Virus record (IMG/VR): IMGVR_UViG_3300029079_000044
Strand: one strand, 5' to 3'
DNA from: a virus
Taxonomy: Duplodnaviria > Heunggongvirae > Uroviricota > Caudoviricetes
DNA: 17,538 nt
The position numbers and the translations under genes are program-made. Below, in pieces: positions 2,433 through 16,802 of the stretch. The notes beneath the pieces are model-generated. The model was not told the origin of the DNA, made no database searches, and worked only from the letters and a program-made list of their open reading frames with translations. How positions within the stretch are numbered: position 1 is the stretch's first letter; each line of letters opens with the position of its first letter.

Positions 2433-2485
2433 GGGCGGCAGAGCAGTCACGGAGTAAAACTGATACCGCCAAACGTCACCAGAAA
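2433..2485 (-). ncRNA. dicF: DicF small RNA (ftsZ-targeting), 53 nt
   Basis: Reverse complement reads TTTCTGGTGACGTTTGGCGGTATCAGTTTTACTCCGTGACTGCTCTGCCGCCC followed by TTTTT, matching the DicF sequence as I recall it, including the GGCGG...CCGCC enclosing stem and 3' U-run. Confidence 0.8.
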
Positions 2486-4853: not shown

Positions 4854-5816
4854 ATGAGCAGCAAGCTTCATGGTCTTGTCTGGGAAGGGTGCGCCTTCAC
4901 CGGCATGATCTTATCCAGGGTGGCGGTTATGGCCCGTCTTGCAGACTACAGCAATGACGAGGGCGTGTCATGGCCTGCCATTGAAACTATCCGGCGTCAG
5001 ATCGGTGCAAGAAGTGAATCCACAGTGAAATCGGCTATTGCAGAACTGGCGAAAGAGGGCTGGCTGACGAAGGAAGAGCGTAAGGTCGGTGGGCGTAATG
5101 TAAGCAATATCTATCGGCTTAATGTGGAAAAACTCGAAGCAGCTGCGGCGGCGGCGCGTGAGTCATATAAACCGAAAAGAAAAATTAGCCCGGCAAAAAA
5201 TGACCCGTTAACAGTTGACCCGTCAAATATTGACCCCTCAACGGTTGACCCGTCAAATTTTGATGGATCAACTGTTGATAAAAAACTGCCGATTAGGGGG
5301 GCGATGATTGACCCCGATCCGTCAGTATTAAAACCTGATCCGTCAGATAAAAGATCTTCTTGTCCGGACGCTTCGCAACCGGACCCGCAGACGGCTGAAC
5401 AGGATTTTTTAACCCGACACCCTGACGCGGTTGTGTTCAGTGCGAAAAAACGCCAGTGGGGAAGTCAGGAAGATTTGGTGTGCGCACAGTGGATCTGGGG
5501 ACGAATCGTGAGTCTTTACGAGCAGGCGGCCAGCGATGATGGCGAGATCACTAGACCGAAAGAACCCAACTGGACAGCATGGGCCAATGACGTTCGCACA
5601 ATGCGGATGCTGGATGGCAGAACTCACAGACAAATTTGTGAAATGTTTGGGCGTCTCCAGCGGGATTCGTTCTGGGTAAAAAACATCATGAGTCCGGCAA
5701 AACTCCGGGAAAAATGGGATGAACTGGTTATCCGCCTGGGGCGTTCGCCTGCGCAGCGTTGCGTGAATCACATTTCTGAACCGGACACTGAAATTCCGCC
5801 GGGCTTCAGGGGGTAA
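4854..5816 (+). CDS. Replication initiator, lambda O-like (winged-helix N-terminus, pentapeptide-repeat linker, C-terminal domain)
   Basis: Track ORF (4839 start; the ATG at 4854 is preferred because of GGGGG upstream); N-terminal helix-turn-helix-like region; DPxxV/DPSxI repeats encoded by in-gene iterons. Confidence 0.6.
   Translation: MSSKLHGLVWEGCAFTGMILSRVAVMARLADYSNDEGVSWPAIETIRRQIGARSESTVKSAIAELAKEGWLTKEERKVGGRNVSNIYRLNVEKLEAAAAAARESYKPKRKISPAKNDPLTVDPSNIDPSTVDPSNFDGSTVDKKLPIRGAMIDPDPSVLKPDPSDKRSSCPDASQPDPQTAEQDFLTRHPDAVVFSAKKRQWGSQEDLVCAQWIWGRIVSLYEQAASDDGEITRPKEPNWTAWANDVRTMRMLDGRTHRQICEMFGRLQRDSFWVKNIMSPAKLREKWDELVIRLGRSPAQRCVNHISEPDTEIPPGFRG
5200..5274. repeat. Five tandem ~15-bp-phased iterons (core TTGACCCGTCAA, internally palindromic TTGAC/GTCAA): candidate origin of replication inside the initiator gene
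   Basis: atgacccgttaa (5200), ttgacccgtcaa (5215), ttgacccctcaa (5230), ttgacccgtcaa (5245), ttgatggatcaa (5260); a further degenerate copy near 5308. Confidence 0.55.
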
Positions 5817-5856
5817 GTGTTAATTTCTGGTCATGAGGTAATTTTCAGGAGGGCTT

Positions 5857-6282
5857 GTGGCAAAAGTTTTTACACAAGAAGAGCGGGAGAAAATTAAAGG
5901 GCAGGTTGTTGAACTCGTACGCCAGAGTGGGCGCGAGACGTTACGACAACTGGAAACTAAAACTGGGGCAACAAGATATCTGATGAGCGTTCTGGCCAGA
6001 GAACTGGTTGCCAGTGGCGATGTATACAACTCTGGTTACGGGTTATTCCCGTCTGAACAGGCGCGTAAGGACTGGCAAAATGCTCGCAAAAAACTCTCAA
6101 GGGCAAAGGTGAAGAAACCTGCAGTGGTTGATCCGGACCTTATCTGGTCGTTACCAGACGGCGAAATACGCCGCTACGACAGGCGCCTGAATATAATCTG
6201 TCGCGAGTGCCGGAAGAGCGAAGCTATGCAGCGTGTACTGGCATTTTATCAAGGAAATGTTAGGTATTTTAGACGTTACTAG
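5857..6282 (+). CDS. Hypothetical protein (141 aa), basic C-terminus; possible DNA-binding
   Basis: GTG start with AGGAGG at about 5 nt upstream; track ORF; no recognisable motif. Confidence 0.5.
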   Translation: MAKVFTQEEREKIKGQVVELVRQSGRETLRQLETKTGATRYLMSVLARELVASGDVYNSGYGLFPSEQARKDWQNARKKLSRAKVKKPAVVDPDLIWSLPDGEIRRYDRRLNIICRECRKSEAMQRVLAFYQGNVRYFRRY

Positions 6283-6435
6283 ATTAAAGAGCATTAGTTC
6301 AGATGTGAATTGACATTTTCATGGCGCAGGGTAGAGCCAGCGTGGTTGTCCGCTTTGCGTCAAAACCAGATATTACCAGATTTAGACATATATTCCCGAT
6401 AGCCCTGCTCTGATGCTACACTCTGTGCTATTTTC

Positions 6436-7122
6436 ATGACCCCAATAAAAATATTTATGACTATTGCTGATTTCAAACGGCCTAAATTGGAGCTCCCAAA
6501 CGGGGCAAACAAACTACTACTGCACTCTTGCTGTGCTCCATGTTCCGGTGAAGTGATGGAGGCGCTTCAGGCCTCGGGAATCGACTACACCATCTTTTTC
6601 TACAACCCGAACATTCATCCTCAGAAAGAGTATTTAATTCGTAAGGATGAAAATATTCGCTTTGCTGAACAACACGGCGTGCCGTTTATCGATGCTGATT
6701 ACGACACCGACAACTGGTTTGAACGTGCCAAAGGAATGGAATGGGAGCCTGAGAGGGGGATCCGTTGTACCATGTGTTTTGACATGCGTTTTGAGCGGAC
6801 AGCGTTGTACGCTGCTGAAAATGGTTTCAGTGTGATCAGCAGTTCACTGGGCATTTCACGCTGGAAAAATATGCAGCAGGTTAACGAGTGTGGGCGGCGA
6901 GCTGTTGCGCATTATCCGGGTATGGTGTACTGGGATTATAACTGGCGCAAGCAGGGCGGCTCGTCCCGTATGATTGAAATCAGCAAGCGCGAAAAATTCT
7001 ATCAGCAGGAATATTGTGGCTGTGTGTATTCTCTGCGCGATACCAATCTACACCGCAAATCTCAGGGACGCCCTCTTATCAAAATTGGTCAACTCCACTA
7101 CGATAAAGAAGAGAAGGAGTGA
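6436..7122 (+). CDS. queH: QueH-like protein (DUF208; putative epoxyqueuosine reductase), 228 aa
   Basis: [11 protein letters not shown] motif near the N-terminus plus downstream RCTMCF and CGC Cys motifs, as I recall for DUF208/QueH. Start is uncertain because no clear Shine-Dalgarno precedes 6436 or 6457. Confidence 0.65.
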
Positions 7123-7154
7123 TTTTATGGAGCACCTTTCTTATTGATTTCATA

Positions 7155-7224
7155 TTGGCGAGGTAGCGGGAGTTAAGTAAAATTGCTGCGGGTGCTTGAG
7201 GTTGTCTGTCTCAGGCATCCGCAG
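7155..7224 (+). promoter_or_regulatory. Promoter-like element (TTGGCG, 17 nt, TAAAAT) followed by conserved hairpin motif copy A
   Basis: -35 at 7155-7160 and -10 at 7178-7183; hairpin 7186-7224 (CTGCGGGTGCTTGAGGT / loop / TCTCAGGCATCCGCAG) with G-U wobble pairs only on the plus strand; sits at the left boundary of the AT-rich cassette. Confidence 0.4.
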
Positions 7225-7330
7225 AAAAATCAGCAAAATGCTCGTTTTATGCACAATTGTAGGATGGTAATCTGATGCATAATTATTCGAAATAACATAA
7301 AATACTAGACGTGTAGGCTGTGGGGTAGTT

Positions 7331-7945
7331 ATGAGAGTAAATAAACTACATTTAGGTGCTAGAGTTTCGCTATTTATAGTGTCATACCTTCCCCTATTCT
7401 TTATCATGTGTTTTGTGCAATTGTATACTTATAGAAGCTATTTAAATTGGAAAGGTATAAGTGTTGAATCATTAACTATTTTCTTTAAATACTTTGGCGC
7501 GGTCAGTGTCATTGGTGTATTATCATTATTTGGTATTGTAGGATTAACAATTTTTTTAAAAAATATAAAACGTCGATGCGCCACTAGTGGTAGAACTGTA
7601 AGAGTTATAGATATTGAAAATAAAAACAATGAATCAATAAGCTATCTTTTTACATATATAATTCCGTTTGTATTTCAGGATCTATCCACTTTAACTAATG
7701 TTATACCTATAGCAATATTGTTAACGGTAACGGCTTTAATATATATTAATTCAAGCATGATACTTATAAATCCTACAATAAGTATTAATTATACTTTATA
7801 TCAAGTTACATATTTGGATTTAGAAAGCGACAAAAAACGCACTGGTATGGTTTTGACTAAATCAAAGTATTTGGAGGAAGATGATCTTCTTGATGTTGAG
7901 GACGTGGGCCCAAAACTTTTTTATGCTGAATCCCATAAGGAATGA
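7331..7945 (+). CDS. Integral membrane protein with about 4 predicted TM helices and an acidic C-terminal tail (204 aa); first gene of the AT-rich cassette, KwaA-like architecture
   Basis: Track ORF; hydrophobic segments LFIVSYLPLFFIMCFVQLY, AVSVIGVLSLFGIVGLTIFL, YLFTYIIPFVF, VIPIAILLTVTALIYI; GGGG upstream of the ATG; stop overlaps the next start. Confidence 0.7.
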   Translation: MRVNKLHLGARVSLFIVSYLPLFFIMCFVQLYTYRSYLNWKGISVESLTIFFKYFGAVSVIGVLSLFGIVGLTIFLKNIKRRCATSGRTVRVIDIENKNNESISYLFTYIIPFVFQDLSTLTNVIPIAILLTVTALIYINSSMILINPTISINYTLYQVTYLDLESDKKRTGMVLTKSKYLEEDDLLDVEDVGPKLFYAESHKE

Positions 7946-8970
7946 AAATGTTAAAGCTTGAAGAATTATTAGAGTATGCTGAGCAACTTAAGGATGATGA
8001 TGCGGCGAAAATATCGTTGTATTTCATTACTAGACATCTTAAAGCGGGTATGAGTAGAACCGCAAGAGTTGTTGATAAATTCGATTTTAAAATCATTAAA
8101 GCTCCAATCGCTCCAGATATTGCTAAATTTTTTAAGTATACTTTATCAAACCAGATTATTTCTCATGCTTCGAAAGATGATATTGTGATGAAAAAGTATA
8201 CTGTTATTGATGATGATATTGATAATAAGATTTATGCCTATGCTATGAATAACGCGATATCGTTTTCAAAAGTTATTAATAACGATATAAAGAATGATAA
8301 ACCAGTTGTACTTACCTCTCTTGCTGAGGTTCAGAATGATTTGTGGGCCTATTGTATTAAAGTCCAAAAGGGGGCTGACGTCACTTATTCTTTCCGAAAA
8401 ATCAGCAGGGGGAAAGTCACAACAAATGAACCACAAAATATGACTCAGCGCGTATTCGCTTTGTTTGATAAAACAGATAAAGAGTTAAGATCATTTGATG
8501 GCAGCGCAGTCAATTTTGATGACAAAATCGATTGTGTTTATATAAAAGATCAATTTTATGTATTTCATAAGAAAAGTTTTGAGGCTATTGTAGGCTTGGA
8601 GGTTGAGTTTACAGAAGCTGCACAAAAAACATTAAATACAATTAAAGAACTTGATCTTATTGAAGGTTTAGATGTTATTGAACAAGCTATTCTTCATAAG
8701 CCATCACTGAGAAAAATTCTCACTCATATCGCTGAGAAAGGTAACCATACGGTTCTGGAAAAGAATGATGTTCAAGCTATGAATGATGTGCTAAAAATGT
8801 TTCAGAACGAAGAGTTTAAGACCAATGAGCATGGTAAATTAGTCATAGAAGATGAGAGGCAAGGAAGAAACTTTCTCAAACTGTTAAATGATTATTATAA
8901 ACAAGGCATGACTACAAAAAAATACTATGGTACGGATAGCGGAAATGTGATTAACCCTATTAAGGCGTAA
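7942..8970 (+). CDS. Soluble 342-aa protein of unknown function, translationally coupled to the upstream membrane protein; candidate defence effector/sensor (KwaB-like size)
   Basis: Track ORF; ATGA start/stop overlap at 7942-7945; AT-rich codon usage unlike the flanking genes; no catalytic motif recognisable by eye. Confidence 0.7.
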   Translation: MKMLKLEELLEYAEQLKDDDAAKISLYFITRHLKAGMSRTARVVDKFDFKIIKAPIAPDIAKFFKYTLSNQIISHASKDDIVMKKYTVIDDDIDNKIYAYAMNNAISFSKVINNDIKNDKPVVLTSLAEVQNDLWAYCIKVQKGADVTYSFRKISRGKVTTNEPQNMTQRVFALFDKTDKELRSFDGSAVNFDDKIDCVYIKDQFYVFHKKSFEAIVGLEVEFTEAAQKTLNTIKELDLIEGLDVIEQAILHKPSLRKILTHIAEKGNHTVLEKNDVQAMNDVLKMFQNEEFKTNEHGKLVIEDERQGRNFLKLLNDYYKQGMTTKKYYGTDSGNVINPIKA

Positions 8971-9198: not shown

Positions 9199-9237
9199 GA
9201 ATCACGGCGGGTGCTTGAGGCTATCTGCCTCGGGCAC
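9199..9237 (+). promoter_or_regulatory. Conserved -10-like hexamer (TAGAAT) plus hairpin motif copy B
   Basis: GCGGGTGCTTGAGGCTATCTGCCTCGGGCA at 9207-9236 is 26/30 identical to copy A at 7188-7217; forms an 11-bp stem GTGCTTGAGGC/GCCTCGGGCAC with loop tatct; sits at the right boundary of the AT-rich cassette. Confidence 0.4.
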
Positions 9238-9399
9238 GAACACCAAAGGCAGATAGAGAAAAGCCCCAGTTAACATTACGCGTCCTGCAAGACGCTTAAC
9301 ATTAATCTGAGGCCAATTTCATGCTAGACACATGTAGGTTAGCCTCTTACGTGCCGAAAGGCACGGAGAAGCAGGCTATTGTTAACACCAAGCTGTAAT

Positions 9400-10900
9400 G
9401 TCCCCTTTGAACCATTCTAAAATGTCCCCAGACAATTCTCTGGGGGATTTTTCATGATCAAAGAGACTGTTACGATGAGTCATAAGGAACTCCACCGACT
9501 TCAGATTATTCAGGAACAAGCTGCGGCACGCATTGGCATTTCTATTCGGCAGGTTAAACGTCTGGTGCAACGGTATAGAAATGAAGGGCCTTCTGGTCTG
9601 GTTTCCCACCGACGTGGAAAGCGTCCTAATAATTCCTTTTCTACTGAATTCAGAGCAACAGTAATTTCACTCCTCAAAGGCCGTTACGCTGATTTTGGAC
9701 CTACGTTTGCGTGCGAAAAATTGCGCGAGATACACGGTTTATCTTTATCCGTTGAAACTCTCAGAAAGTGGATGATAGAAGAGGGGTTATGGCGTGAACG
9801 CCGTCGTAAAATTGCCCGTATATATCAACGCCGCATGCGACGACCATCTTACGGTGAACTGATCCAGATTGATGGCTCACCTCATGACTGGTTTGAAAAT
9901 CGAGGCCCCAGATGTACACTGATCGTTTTCATTGATGATGCCACCAGTGCGTTGATGGCGTTGCGTTTTGTGCCTGCTGAAACAACCCGGGCTTACATGG
10001 AAACCCTCCGGGGTTACCTTAATGATCATGGCGTACCGCTCGCTCTCTACTCTGATAGACACAGTATATTCAGGGTAAATAACCCAGAGCGGGAAGGTGA
10101 GCTGACCCAGTTCACTCGTGCGATAAAGACACTGGGCATCGAGCCAATCCATGCCAACAGCCCGCAGGCAAAAGGGCGGGTAGAGCGCGCCAATCAGACA
10201 CTACAGGACAGGCTGGTCAAAGAAATGCGGCTTCAGAATATCAGTGATATTGAAACAGCAAATGCATGGTTGCCGACCTTTATTGAAGCCTATAACAACC
10301 GGTTCGCTACGTCGCCTCGTACTACTGATAATGCTCATCTTGATGTGCACCATTCTGAAGAGGAACTGGGTTATATCTTCAGCCTACAGGCGAAGCGCGT
10401 TCTGTCTAAAAATCTCACTTTCCAGTACAAAAGCAGTGCGTTTCAGGTACGCAGTGAGGGCCGGGGATATCGACTTAGGCATTCGGTTGTTACTGTATGC
10501 GAGAACTTTGACGGTGAAATTAACGTTCTGTATGACGGGAAAGCGCTGGGCTGGGAAAAGTATGTTGATGGCCCGGAGCCTATACCACTGGATGATGAAA
10601 AGAGTGTCCATGAACGAGTGGATAATGCCCGTATTGATTTACGCTCAAAATACTATGTTAAACCTAAAGCTGACCATCCCTGGCTTACGCGCCGAACGCA
10701 AAGTCATCAGCAAGTTAAGCCCCCGAAGTTACCTAAAAAGAAGCCTGATCCCGATAAAAAAGATTGAAACCAAGATCGATTCGGTTGAGTGCATATCCAT
10801 TCATAGGGTAGATTCTTAAGTCGCGTTTCTGGTGTTCATTTTCGGGTGGTTTGTTACTTGTTTTACCGGGGATATGCCAGAAACGCGCTGAGTCAGTCTG
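9400..10900 (+). mobile_element. Insertion sequence carrying one DDE transposase gene (IS481/ISNCY-like); ends approximate
   Basis: Single 437-aa transposase ORF; terminal inverted repeats could not be resolved by eye, so these bounds are a guess of ORF plus about 50-130 bp each side. Confidence 0.35.
9454..10767 (+). CDS. DDE transposase with N-terminal HTH and rve integrase core (IS481/ISNCY-family-like), 437 aa
   Basis: Track ORF; N-terminal HTH (ARIGISIRQVKRLVQRYRNEG); catalytic-triad candidates in IQIDGS, YSDRHS and KGRVERANQTLQ; lysine/proline-rich basic C-terminus. Confidence 0.8.
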   Translation: MIKETVTMSHKELHRLQIIQEQAAARIGISIRQVKRLVQRYRNEGPSGLVSHRRGKRPNNSFSTEFRATVISLLKGRYADFGPTFACEKLREIHGLSLSVETLRKWMIEEGLWRERRRKIARIYQRRMRRPSYGELIQIDGSPHDWFENRGPRCTLIVFIDDATSALMALRFVPAETTRAYMETLRGYLNDHGVPLALYSDRHSIFRVNNPEREGELTQFTRAIKTLGIEPIHANSPQAKGRVERANQTLQDRLVKEMRLQNISDIETANAWLPTFIEAYNNRFATSPRTTDNAHLDVHHSEEELGYIFSLQAKRVLSKNLTFQYKSSAFQVRSEGRGYRLRHSVVTVCENFDGEINVLYDGKALGWEKYVDGPEPIPLDDEKSVHERVDNARIDLRSKYYVKPKADHPWLTRRTQSHQQVKPPKLPKKKPDPDKKD

Positions 10901-16086: not shown

Positions 16087-16386
16087 AAAAATTCCTTAAT
16101 ACTGATAACTTGGCGCACTATACACACGTTCCTGAAGAAAGCTATAGTTTTTTGATGGGGTTGAAGATGGCTGGATGTCTAAAATAAACATTGCTTCATA
16201 TGTTCAACTATGCGTTAATGATTGCGTCGGTTTGAAGAACAGACGATATACGAAGTAGTTTACTAAAGCAGTTCTCATTTCAGGTGTTATTCACTTATTC
16301 CTTCTTTGAGTCTCTCCAATTAAGTACGAAGTCGTTTCTGTTATGCAAACCATTTATGCCGAAAGGCTCAAGTTAAGGAATGTAGA

Positions 16387-16602
16387 ATGTCAAATAAAAT
16401 GACTGGTTTAGTAAAATGGTTTAACGCTGATAAAGGTTTCGGCTTTATTTCTCCTGTTGATGGTAGTAAAGATGTGTTTGTGCATTTTTCTGCGATTCAG
16501 AATGATAATTATCGAACCTTATTTGAAGGTCAAAAGGTTACCTTCTCTGTAGAGAGTGGTGCTAAAGGTCCTGCGGCAGCAAATGTTATAATTACCGATT
16601 AA
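16387..16602 (+). CDS. cspB: Cold-shock protein CspB-like (71 aa)
   Basis: [51 protein letters not shown]...; AAGGA Shine-Dalgarno. Confidence 0.8.
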
Positions 16603-16802
16603 AATCCAGGACTCGACTGTATACGATAACGAAGATGGCTGATGCCTGAGTAGAGATGCAGATAGAGTAATGGATATAGAATCCCATTTTGTGGTGAAGT
16701 ACAGGTTTGCTGTATGAATAGTTTAATAGCAGAAGCTAACTGCTGGCATAGTAAAACAAAGTGCGTAAGTGGGTGACTCCCACAAAAAGCACCACAATCT
16801 CA

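What the first reader, a model, noticed from the sequence alone, without database searches (positions are those of the whole stretch)
6436..7122. Prophage-borne QueH-like (DUF208) gene
The [11 protein letters not shown] motif and additional Cys motifs suggest the Fe-S epoxyqueuosine reductase QueH family. E. coli normally makes this step with the cobalamin-dependent QueG, so a phage-carried QueH-type enzyme is non-canonical cargo. It stands alone here, without queC/D/E or a tgt/dpdA-like gene, which favours a role in tRNA queuosine maturation (decoding of NAU/NAC codons) over DNA 7-deazaguanine modification, but either is possible. It lies directly upstream of the AT-rich cassette but has typical G+C and its own upstream region, so it is probably a separate moron.
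Basis: partly seen in the sequence, partly recalled or inferred. Interest (0 to 1): 0.55.

Follow-up and report, generated by a model that had tools for sequence, protein, structure and literature searches.

The report
Prophage-borne B12-independent queuosine reductase QueH
This is an intact, well-conserved copy of the known iron-sulfur enzyme QueH, which finishes the tRNA base queuosine without vitamin B12; it rides as a stand-alone cargo gene on a lambda-like E. coli prophage whose host already has the B12-dependent enzyme QueG, so it is a real but fairly ordinary and already-annotated gene in a little-discussed location.

Summary
The ORF ending at 7122 is a full-length QueH (PF02677, 221 bits, E 1e-65). 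It has all six family-invariant cysteines, and its predicted fold matches T. maritima QueH (TM 0.85). Comparative data place the true start at ATG 6457 (221 aa), not 6436.

The gene lies in a Qin/Rac-type lambdoid prophage, directly after the DUF977/Ren-like gene that ends the replication module. It is found in 995 of 5426 complete E. coli genomes, and RefSeq already names it QueH. All 5426 genomes also carry queG, so carriers have both enzymes.

Copies in different prophage backbones are under strong purifying selection (dN/dS 0.04-0.07). A conserved extended -10 motif (TGCTACACT, 6414-6422) travels with the gene across prophage, IncF-plasmid and chromosomal contexts. The AT-rich cassette downstream is a Kiwa defence system and is separable from queH: only about 16% of carriers have it.

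No queC/D/E, tgt or dpdA gene accompanies queH, not even in the complete phage HannyBb. The best reading is a self-promoted cargo gene that converts host oQ-tRNA to Q-tRNA independently of cobalamin. Enzyme activity and expression were not tested here.

Verdict: a new mobile-element member of a known enzyme family, of moderate to low interest.

The parts
6457..7122 (+). queH coding sequence (221 aa plus stop), a cobalamin-independent epoxyqueuosine reductase
   Evidence: Pfam PF02677 at 221.5 bits. Matches T. maritima QueH 7lc5 at E 8e-22. All six family-invariant Cys and the other invariant residues are present. Predicted fold matches 7lc5 with TM 0.85 normalised to the target. PGAP annotates this start. 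dN/dS is 0.04-0.07.
6436..6456 (+).
   Evidence: ATG 6436 is replaced by ATT, with an in-frame TAA, in GPEC657 and in a Salmonella plasmid copy. The ATG at 6457 is invariant.
6414..6422 (+). Conserved extended -10 promoter-like motif TGcTACACT, 35-43 nt upstream of the start codon
   Evidence: TGCTACA[AC]T-like motifs sit at the same offset in prophage, IncF-plasmid and chromosomal copies, although the surrounding upstream sequence is otherwise unrelated. The simple -35/-10 scan did not report it because there is no -35 match. Promoter function is inferred.
7186..7224 (+). 16-bp hairpin 64 nt after the stop codon with no U-tract; function uncertain
   Evidence: RNA fold gives -43.1 kcal/mol for 7120-7260, z -2.7. 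The terminator scan found none. Sequence homology with non-Kiwa prophages ends inside or just after this hairpin.

Best explanation
The gene encodes a functional QueH, the [4Fe-4S]/iron enzyme that reduces epoxyqueuosine (oQ) to queuosine (Q) at position 34 of tRNA-Asn/Asp/His/Tyr without cobalamin. It is a discrete cargo gene of lambdoid prophages, inserted right after the replication module. It probably has its own extended -10 promoter, and it also lies in the direction of early-right transcription.

It needs no partner genes, because the host supplies oQ-tRNA through FolE, QueDECF, Tgt and QueA. E. coli cannot make B12 de novo, and its own oQ reductase QueG is cobalamin-dependent. A lysogen would therefore complete Q whether or not cobalamin is available.

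Shown here: family membership, intact catalytic residues, fold, purifying selection, stand-alone mobile context, and coexistence with queG. Inferred: enzyme activity in E. coli, expression in the lysogen, and any benefit under B12 limitation.
For: Family and fold:
- Full-length PF02677 match and homology to crystallised T. maritima QueH.
- Six Cys invariant in 63/63 diverse family representatives are all present. The seventh position is Cys, as in 59/63; T. maritima has Asp13 there.
- The AlphaFold model (pLDDT 74, pTM 0.76) has QueH structures as its top five PDB hits, rmsd 2.4-2.8 A.
- 75-91% identity to QueH copies in non-phage contexts (chromosomal where the contig is long enough to tell) across Proteobacteria, in genome records that carry no annotation.

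Selection and distribution:
- dN/dS is 0.04-0.07 between prophage alleles with dS 0.09-0.41.
- queH is in 995/5426 complete E. coli genomes and queG in 5426/5426.
- It sits in the same slot after DUF977 in Qin-like, Rac-site, O157 and E. coli B prophages and in phage HannyBb.
- It is also stand-alone cargo on IncF plasmids of Klebsiella and Salmonella, which points to a host-level rather than phage-specific function.
- The extended -10 motif is conserved in all of these contexts.

Literature:
- The oQ-to-Q step by QueG depends on cobalamin, and a K-12 queG knockout accumulates oQ (PMC4646009).
- QueH is the cobalamin-independent alternative (PMC5615194; PMC6461909).
- QueG and QueH coexist in S. 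aureus with different expression patterns (PMC13443448).
Against: - No activity, expression or tRNA-modification data exist for this gene. I found no paper on it.
- No NCBIfam model matched.
- There is no recognisable Shine-Dalgarno sequence and no -35 element, and no canonical terminator.
- The promoter is inferred from conservation only.
- The physiological difference between oQ and Q is poorly defined, so any benefit from the redundancy is speculative.
- The structure model is of only moderate confidence.
Confidence: 0.78

Rival explanations
1. The gene serves the phage, not the host. It would be transcribed from the early-right operon during lytic growth or induction, pushing host tRNA from oQ to Q. 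That could tune decoding of NAU/NAC codons in phage genes, or manipulate a Q-dependent host response to infection. This partly overlaps with the main explanation.
For: The gene is co-oriented with cro, the replication genes and Q, and sits between the replication genes and the antiterminator. A 2026 preprint reports that phage infection of Shewanella induces queG, lowers oQ, raises Q, and that Q promotes phage resistance and NAT-codon translation (10.64898/2026.03.05.709803). So the oQ-to-Q step can be a regulated node during infection.
Against: The same gene with the same upstream motif is cargo on conjugative IncF plasmids and lies in non-phage contexts in other Enterobacterales, chromosomal where the contig is long enough to tell. 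Phage genes show no special NAT bias: 0.56-0.57 against 0.53 in a K-12 sample. Many carriers are defective prophages, such as the E. coli B and Qin-like remnants, yet the gene stays under purifying selection.
Confidence: 0.12
2. The enzyme works on phage or host DNA as part of a 7-deazaguanine DNA modification pathway, not on tRNA.
For: Phages are known to use preQ0-derived bases in DNA (PMC6884629). QueH chemistry acts on a 7-deazaguanine derivative.
Against: No dpdA/tgt, queC, queD, queE or queA homologue is annotated in the window, in related prophages, or in the complete 45-kb genome of phage HannyBb. To my knowledge none of the known DNA 7-deazaguanines carries the epoxide that QueH reduces. 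Carriage on plasmids and chromosomes argues for a host tRNA substrate. Hutinet et al. found no Q-specific genes (QueA, QueG, QueH) in the DNA-modifying viruses they surveyed.
Confidence: 0.03
3. The gene is a functionless passenger, a decaying remnant captured from another enterobacterium and carried along by prophage recombination.
For: It is redundant with the universal queG. It lacks an obvious ribosome-binding site. Many host prophages are defective.
Against: dN/dS is 0.04-0.07, as low as between the non-prophage copies of Scandinavium and Enterobacter (0.03). 985 of 995 copies are near full length, and every sampled copy is annotated as an intact QueH. All invariant residues are retained. 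The upstream motif is conserved.
Confidence: 0.05
4. QueH is a functional partner of the adjacent Kiwa (KwaA/KwaB) defence cassette or another defence system.
For: It sits immediately upstream of a slot that holds Kiwa, an NgoMIV-type R-M system or hok in different strains. The exact protein allele of this window was followed by Kiwa in all 10 contigs sampled.
Against: Only 155 of about 995 queH genomes have the queH-kwaA junction. QueH matches no PADLOC model. G+C differs sharply, 48% against 32%. Homology between Kiwa and non-Kiwa prophages breaks just after queH. Kiwa is described as a two-gene system.
Confidence: 0.02

Closest known systems
QueH (DUF208, PF02677), cobalamin-independent tRNA epoxyqueuosine(34) reductase; crystal structures of Thermotoga maritima QueH (7lc5, 7lc7, 9deu)
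   Same: Full-length domain match, six invariant Cys, other invariant residues (N52, Y59, R62, E99, R103, K137, Q184, G188), and the same predicted fold.
   Different: Only about 30% identical to the crystallised enzyme. It has Cys where T. maritima has Asp13; Cys is the majority form, 59/63. It carries a roughly 25-residue C-terminal tail. It is encoded on a prophage in a host that also has QueG, not in a que operon or as the sole oQ reductase.
QueH copies in non-phage (mostly chromosomal) contexts in other Enterobacterales and Proteobacteria (Scandinavium, Kluyvera, Enterobacter, Erwinia, Serratia, Providencia, Photorhabdus, Pseudomonas, Sphingomonas)
   Same: 75-91% amino-acid identity over the full length. 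The closest ones share the TGCTACA[AC]T upstream motif.
   Different: Those copies show no homologue of this window's prophage genes (DUF977, YdaT and others) within about 8 kb. In Escherichia the gene is tied to the DUF977 end of lambdoid replication modules.
[quoted passage not shown]
   Same: Catalyses the same reaction. It is present in every genome that carries this queH.
   Different: Unrelated fold and cofactor. QueG needs cobalamin (PMC4646009); QueH does not (PMC5615194).
Lambdoid-phage 'morons' and lysogenic-conversion cargo genes
   Same: A single gene with presence/absence polymorphism among related prophages, a likely promoter of its own, and no role in phage replication or morphogenesis.
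   Different: No canonical terminator and no compositional contrast with the phage backbone. The same cassette also occurs on plasmids and chromosomes.
Phage 7-deazaguanine DNA-modification clusters (DpdA with FolE/QueD/QueE/QueC and others)
   Same: Both belong to queuosine/7-deazaguanine metabolism carried by phages.
   Different: None of the signature genes is present. A 2019 survey found no QueA, QueG or QueH in the viruses it analysed (PMC6884629).

Membership tests
QueH / DUF208 (PF02677) | Significant full-length match to the family profile | tested here: met
   221.5 bits against a cut-off of 23.5, profile positions 1-174 of 175.
QueH / DUF208 (PF02677) | Six conserved cysteines (CC...C-x2-C...C-G-C) that hold the [4Fe-4S] cluster and the adjacent metal | tested here: met
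   C25, C26, C104, C107, C187 and C189 (221-aa numbering) are invariant in 63/63 diverse representatives and align with T. maritima C9, C10, C87, C90, C169 and C171.
QueH / DUF208 (PF02677) | Residue at the CCAP-x position (Asp13 in T. maritima, the site of a deposited D13N mutant) | tested here: met
   Cys29 here. Cys is found in 59/63 representatives and Asp in 4/63. The D13N entry 9dco is listed. The residue's precise role is recalled from memory because the paper is not held.
QueH / DUF208 (PF02677) | QueH fold (adenine-nucleotide alpha-hydrolase-like core) | tested here: met
   The top five PDB matches are T. maritima QueH structures, TM 0.82-0.87 normalised to the target and rmsd 2.4-2.8 A. 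The next hits (TtuA, LarE) are far weaker. The model is of moderate confidence, pLDDT 73.9.
QueH / DUF208 (PF02677) | Binds a [4Fe-4S] cluster and reduces oQ-tRNA to Q-tRNA without cobalamin | not testable with these tools
   Needs biochemistry or LC-MS of tRNA nucleosides.
QueH / DUF208 (PF02677) | Curated NCBIfam model hit | tested here: inconclusive
   No NCBIfam family matched at E <= 0.01, yet RefSeq names the protein 'epoxyqueuosine reductase QueH'. That library may simply hold no HMM for the family.
Phage moron (autonomous cargo gene) | Presence/absence polymorphism at a fixed site among related prophages | tested here: met
   Present in 995/5426 genomes, in every sampled context directly after DUF977. 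Flanks are mosaic on both sides.
Phage moron (autonomous cargo gene) | Own promoter | tested here: inconclusive
   A conserved extended -10 motif sits at 6414-6422 in all contexts, but there is no -35, the consensus scan did not report it, and there are no transcript data.
Phage moron (autonomous cargo gene) | Own terminator | tested here: not met
   No terminator-like sites in 5700-7500. There is only a strong hairpin without a U-tract at 7186-7224.
Phage 7-deazaguanine DNA-modification system | DpdA/TGT-like transglycosylase plus preQ0 synthesis genes in the same element | tested here: not met
   None is annotated or detected by precomputed Pfam hits in the window-equivalent regions or in the whole HannyBb genome.
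Known anti-phage defence systems (PADLOC) | Match to a defence-protein model | tested here: not met
   QueH has 0 PADLOC families. Its neighbours match KwaA at 1e-101 and KwaB at 5e-159.

The most novel reading that the evidence does not exclude
Mobile elements of Enterobacteriaceae (lambdoid prophages in Escherichia, IncF plasmids in Klebsiella and Salmonella) spread a self-promoted QueH cassette. The cassette would uncouple the last step of queuosine synthesis from cobalamin supply. A prophage would thereby reprogramme the oQ/Q state of host tRNAs, changing NAU/NAC decoding and Q-dependent traits such as stress response, biofilm and possibly the outcome of superinfection. That would be lysogenic conversion acting on the tRNA epitranscriptome.
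Probability: 0.3. Interest if true: 0.6.

Novelty: new member of a known kind. Interest (0 to 1): 0.35.

Why it matters
If the gene is active, about one in five sequenced E. coli strains can finish queuosine without vitamin B12, while K-12, where the pathway was worked out, cannot. These strains include ST131 and APEC O18, some O157:H7 and O111 strains, and the laboratory strains B REL606, C and ATCC 8739. That would be a strain-dependent difference in tRNA modification carried by prophages and plasmids. It bears on studies of Q-dependent translation, metal and oxidative stress phenotypes, and cobamide ecology in the gut. It would also correct the published impression that viruses carry no Q-specific genes. 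The enzyme family, its chemistry and the gene's annotation are already known, so the advance would be in distribution and physiology, not a new mechanism.

Tried and rejected
- Riboswitch or other known RNA element upstream of queH (for example preQ1 or cobalamin): none in 6150-7450, even at E <= 1.
- Canonical sigma-70 promoter and intrinsic terminator scans: nothing convincing on the + strand near the gene. The promoter proposal rests on comparative conservation instead.
- tRNA genes for Asn, Asp, His or Tyr on the element: none in the window.
- Codon-bias test for a phage-translation role: NAT fractions are 0.57 (early genes) and 0.56 (HannyBb late genes) against 0.53 (K-12 sample). This is not informative. 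Kiwa's 0.86 only reflects its AT-richness.
- Defence-system membership of QueH: no PADLOC hit.
- Literature: no paper on a prophage or plasmid QueH in E. coli. The two key QueH papers and Frey 1988 are not held. Statements about which QueH proteins were validated experimentally, and about metal ligands, are therefore from memory or from citing papers.
- Cultured phages with QueH: only one convincing case, HannyBb. The other 'phage' hits are short unannotated virome contigs or records of 280-380 kb, and I did not examine either kind further.
- Conserved chromosomal synteny around queH in other Enterobacterales: none found. Neighbourhoods vary, and the most frequent apparent neighbour in the ORF clustering appears to be a spurious ORF on the opposite strand overlapping queH.
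- The minus-strand ORF 7150-7407 and other overlapping ORFs: no support, and I treated them as spurious.

Full report
**Observation.** The window has an uninterrupted + strand ORF at 6436..7122 (228 aa). Its translation matches Pfam PF02677 (QueH, formerly DUF208) across the entire model at E 1.1e-65 and 221.5 bits, against a gathering score of 23.5. It also matches the crystallised Thermotoga maritima QueH (7lc5) at E 8e-22.

**Start codon.** One coordinate needs correcting. RefSeq/PGAP starts the gene at the second ATG, 6457 (221 aa), in every related genome I opened. Alignments show why. ATG 6457 is invariant. ATG 6436 is replaced by ATT, followed by an in-frame TAA, in strain GPEC657 and in a Salmonella plasmid copy.

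**Family membership.**
- I aligned 63 full-length representatives drawn from a search of 1.84 billion cluster representatives.
- Six cysteines are invariant in 63/63 and all are present here: C25, C26, C104, C107, C187 and C189 in 221-aa numbering. They align with T. maritima C9, C10, C87, C90, C169 and C171.
- The other invariant residues are present too: N52, Y59, R62, E99, R103, K137, Q184 and G188.
- The position after CCAP is Cys in 59/63 and Asp in 4/63. T. maritima has the minority Asp13, for which a D13N mutant structure is deposited. The E. coli protein has the majority form.
- An AlphaFold2 model built on 31 homologues is of moderate confidence (pLDDT 73.9, pTM 0.76).
- Its five best PDB matches are all T. 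maritima QueH structures, with TM 0.82-0.87 normalised to the target and rmsd 2.4-2.8 A. The next matches (TtuA, LarE) are much weaker.
- No NCBIfam model matched. I regard this as uninformative, because RefSeq itself names the protein QueH.

**Genomic context.**
- The window is a Qin/Rac-type lambdoid prophage.
- Its gene order is exonuclease, ydfD, dicB, DicF RNA, ydfA, repressor, cro-like gene, YdaT, an O-like replication protein, and DUF977 (PHROG 'Ren-like exclusion protein').
- Next come queH, KwaA and KwaB, a sok RNA, an ISNCY transposase, flxA, relBE and hokD.
- It ends with rem, ydfU, the Q antiterminator and cspB/F.
- queH is co-oriented with the early-right operon.
- No queC, queD, queE, queA, tgt or dpdA gene is present in the window, in near-identical annotated regions, or in the complete 45-kb genome of the related temperate phage HannyBb.

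**Distribution.**
- queH is found at 90% nucleotide identity or more in 995 of 5426 complete E. coli genomes. 985 copies are near full length, and every sampled row is annotated 'epoxyqueuosine reductase QueH'.
- Carriers include ST131, APEC O18, E. coli 042, some O157:H7 and O111 strains, and the laboratory strains B REL606, ATCC 11303, C and ATCC 8739.
- The chromosomal queG of K-12 is present in 5426/5426 genomes, so every carrier has both enzymes.
- In every context examined, queH lies directly after the DUF977 gene. These contexts were a Qin-like element, a prophage at the Rac site, a prophage next to tRNA-Ser/mtfA, an O157:H7 prophage, the defective E. coli B element, E. albertii and phage HannyBb.
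- The next slot downstream is variable. It holds Kiwa in the window, an NgoMIV-type restriction-modification pair in O157:H7 Z1723, hokD in O18 and E. coli B, and a DUF1971 gene in GPEC657.
- Homology between these elements breaks within a few bases of the queH stop codon, or just after a hairpin at 7186-7224.
- Only 155 genomes have the queH-kwaA junction of this window.
- queH and the AT-rich cassette are therefore separate modules. This agrees with their G+C of 47.9% and 31.8% and with the cassette's strong KwaA and KwaB matches.

**Origin and mobility.**
- The closest relatives outside Escherichia are in Scandinavium, Kluyvera and Enterobacter (88-91% amino-acid identity).
- A broad set of Enterobacterales and other Proteobacteria follows at 75-86%.
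- None of these loci has a homologue of the window's prophage genes (DUF977, YdaT and others) within about 8 kb.
- The same gene is also stand-alone cargo in accessory regions of conjugative IncF plasmids, with 99 Klebsiella records and one Salmonella copy at 96% identity.
- Among cultured phages I found only HannyBb.
- PHROGs holds the family as phrog_3217, 'unknown function'.
- A 2019 survey of viral 7-deazaguanine genes stated that no QueA, QueG or QueH homologues were found in the viruses it analysed (PMC6884629).
- I found no paper that discusses a prophage- or plasmid-borne QueH.

**Evidence that the gene is maintained for function.**
- Nei-Gojobori dN/dS between prophage alleles is 0.04-0.07 at dS 0.09-0.41.
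- That is the same range as between the non-prophage copies of Scandinavium and Enterobacter, 0.03.
- A short motif, TGCTACACT at 6414-6422, is an extended -10 of the TGnTAnnnT type. It lies 35-43 nt upstream of the start codon.
- It is retained as TGCTACA[AC]T or a close variant in prophage, plasmid and chromosomal copies.
- In those copies the remaining upstream sequence, and even the spacer to the ATG, are unrelated.
- This is the best evidence that the gene carries its own promoter, but it is an inference.
- The generic promoter scan did not report the motif because there is no -35 match. No intrinsic terminator was found, and there is no evident Shine-Dalgarno sequence.
- No known riboswitch or other Rfam element lies near the gene.

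**Mechanism.**
- Shown: the protein has every sequence and fold feature of QueH.
- Established knowledge:
  - QueH is a cobalamin-independent oQ reductase (PMC5615194; PMC6461909).
  - The QueG step depends on cobalamin, and a K-12 yjeS/queG knockout accumulates oQ (PMC4646009).
  - E. coli takes up but does not synthesise cobalamin de novo (general knowledge).
- Inferred: in a lysogen, host enzymes up to QueA produce oQ-tRNA. The prophage QueH then reduces it to Q-tRNA even when cobalamin is scarce, which makes full Q modification independent of B12.
- Coexistence of QueG and QueH with different expression patterns has been described in S. aureus (PMC13443448).
- Plasmid and chromosomal carriage of the same cassette favours a host-level benefit over a phage-specific one.

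**Rivals.**
- *Phage-centred role (about 0.12).* The idea is that the gene boosts Q during lytic growth or alters a Q-dependent response to infection, and I cannot exclude it. A 2026 preprint reports that phage infection of Shewanella induces queG, shifts oQ to Q, and that Q promotes phage resistance. However, phage genes show no special NAU bias, and defective prophages keep the gene intact.
- *DNA-modification role (about 0.03).* This is very unlikely because no transglycosylase or preQ0 genes accompany queH, even in a complete phage.
- *Decaying passenger (about 0.05).* The dN/dS values and the intactness of the copies contradict this.
- *Partnership with Kiwa (about 0.02).* The 16% co-occurrence and the absence of any defence-model match contradict this.

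**Comparison and novelty.** By every computational test available, this is a member of the QueH family, and RefSeq already annotates it as such. What the literature I could search does not describe is its systematic carriage by lambdoid prophages, at a fixed site after the replication module and next to a variable defence slot, and by IncF plasmids, in hosts that already have QueG. I classify it as a new (mobile-element) member of a known kind. Interest is moderate to low, 0.35. A specialist in queuosine or cobamide biology would find the strain-dependent, prophage-borne B12 bypass worth a simple experiment. REL606 or E. coli C against K-12 offers a ready test. It does not reveal a new mechanism.

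Noticed in passing
window 7331-8970 (+): The AT-rich cassette (31.8% G+C) is a Kiwa anti-phage system: KwaA (204 aa, PADLOC PDLC00212, E 1e-101) and KwaB (342 aa, PDLC00223, E 5e-159). The junction with queH is present in 155 of 5426 complete E. coli genomes.
   Followed up: partly
window about 7123-7330, and the equivalent sites in L001, L004, L005 and L006: The slot immediately 3' of queH is a variable cargo site. It holds Kiwa here, an NgoMIV-type cytosine methyltransferase plus endonuclease in O157:H7 Z1723, hokD in O18 and E. coli B, and a DUF1971 gene in GPEC657. It looks like a defence and addiction hotspot at the end of the replication module.
   Followed up: partly
window 9209-9380 (+) and 9454-10767 (+): An Rfam sok antitoxin RNA (105.6 bits) lies just after Kiwa and is followed by an ISNCY-family transposase ORF (437 aa). 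The hok/sok locus appears to be interrupted or displaced by the IS.
   Followed up: no
window 2433-2484 (-) and 16226-16644 (+): A DicF antisense sRNA (76.7 bits) and a cspA-type thermoregulator 5' UTR (162 bits, upstream of cspB) are typical Qin-prophage features and confirm the element's identity.
   Followed up: no
window 7186-7224 (+): A perfect 16-bp hairpin (with one G-U pair) lies 64 nt after the queH stop, with no following U-tract. The outer part of the stem is specific to Kiwa-bearing elements, and the inner part is shared with O18 and O157 prophages. Its function is unknown; it may be a transcript end or a recombination joint.
   Followed up: partly
L004 (E. coli B-ZidR), NC_012967.1 REL606, NZ_CP029371.1 (E. 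coli C), ATCC 8739: Common laboratory strains of the B, C and Crooks lineages carry an intact queH allele (about 94% nucleotide identity to the window), preceded by a truncated methyltransferase fragment and followed by hokD. The K-12 queG knockout accumulates oQ (PMC4646009), which implies K-12 has no functional backup reductase; I did not confirm directly that K-12 lacks queH. Q/oQ status may therefore differ between standard lab strains in B12-free media.
   Followed up: partly
L088 (K. pneumoniae IncF plasmid NZ_CP040995.1) and L089 (Salmonella IncFII plasmid NZ_CP024167.1): queH (91-96% amino-acid identity), with the same upstream TGCTACACT motif, is stand-alone cargo on conjugative plasmids. 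99 Klebsiella plasmid records match.
   Followed up: partly
L090-L099 (contigs encoding the identical QueH protein): The exact QueH allele of this window is followed by Kiwa in 10 of 10 sampled contigs. Upstream, the immunity and replication modules differ (S24-peptidase repressor versus HTH-only repressor; IstB/DnaC-like plus DUF1627 versus O-like only). This shows that the queH-Kiwa block recombines between prophage backbones.
   Followed up: no
L011 (Enterobacter sp. ECC-175 chromosome): Here queH lies just downstream of icd (isocitrate dehydrogenase). The 3' end of icd is a classic lambdoid/e14 attachment site, so this 'chromosomal' copy may also sit in a degraded island.
   Followed up: no
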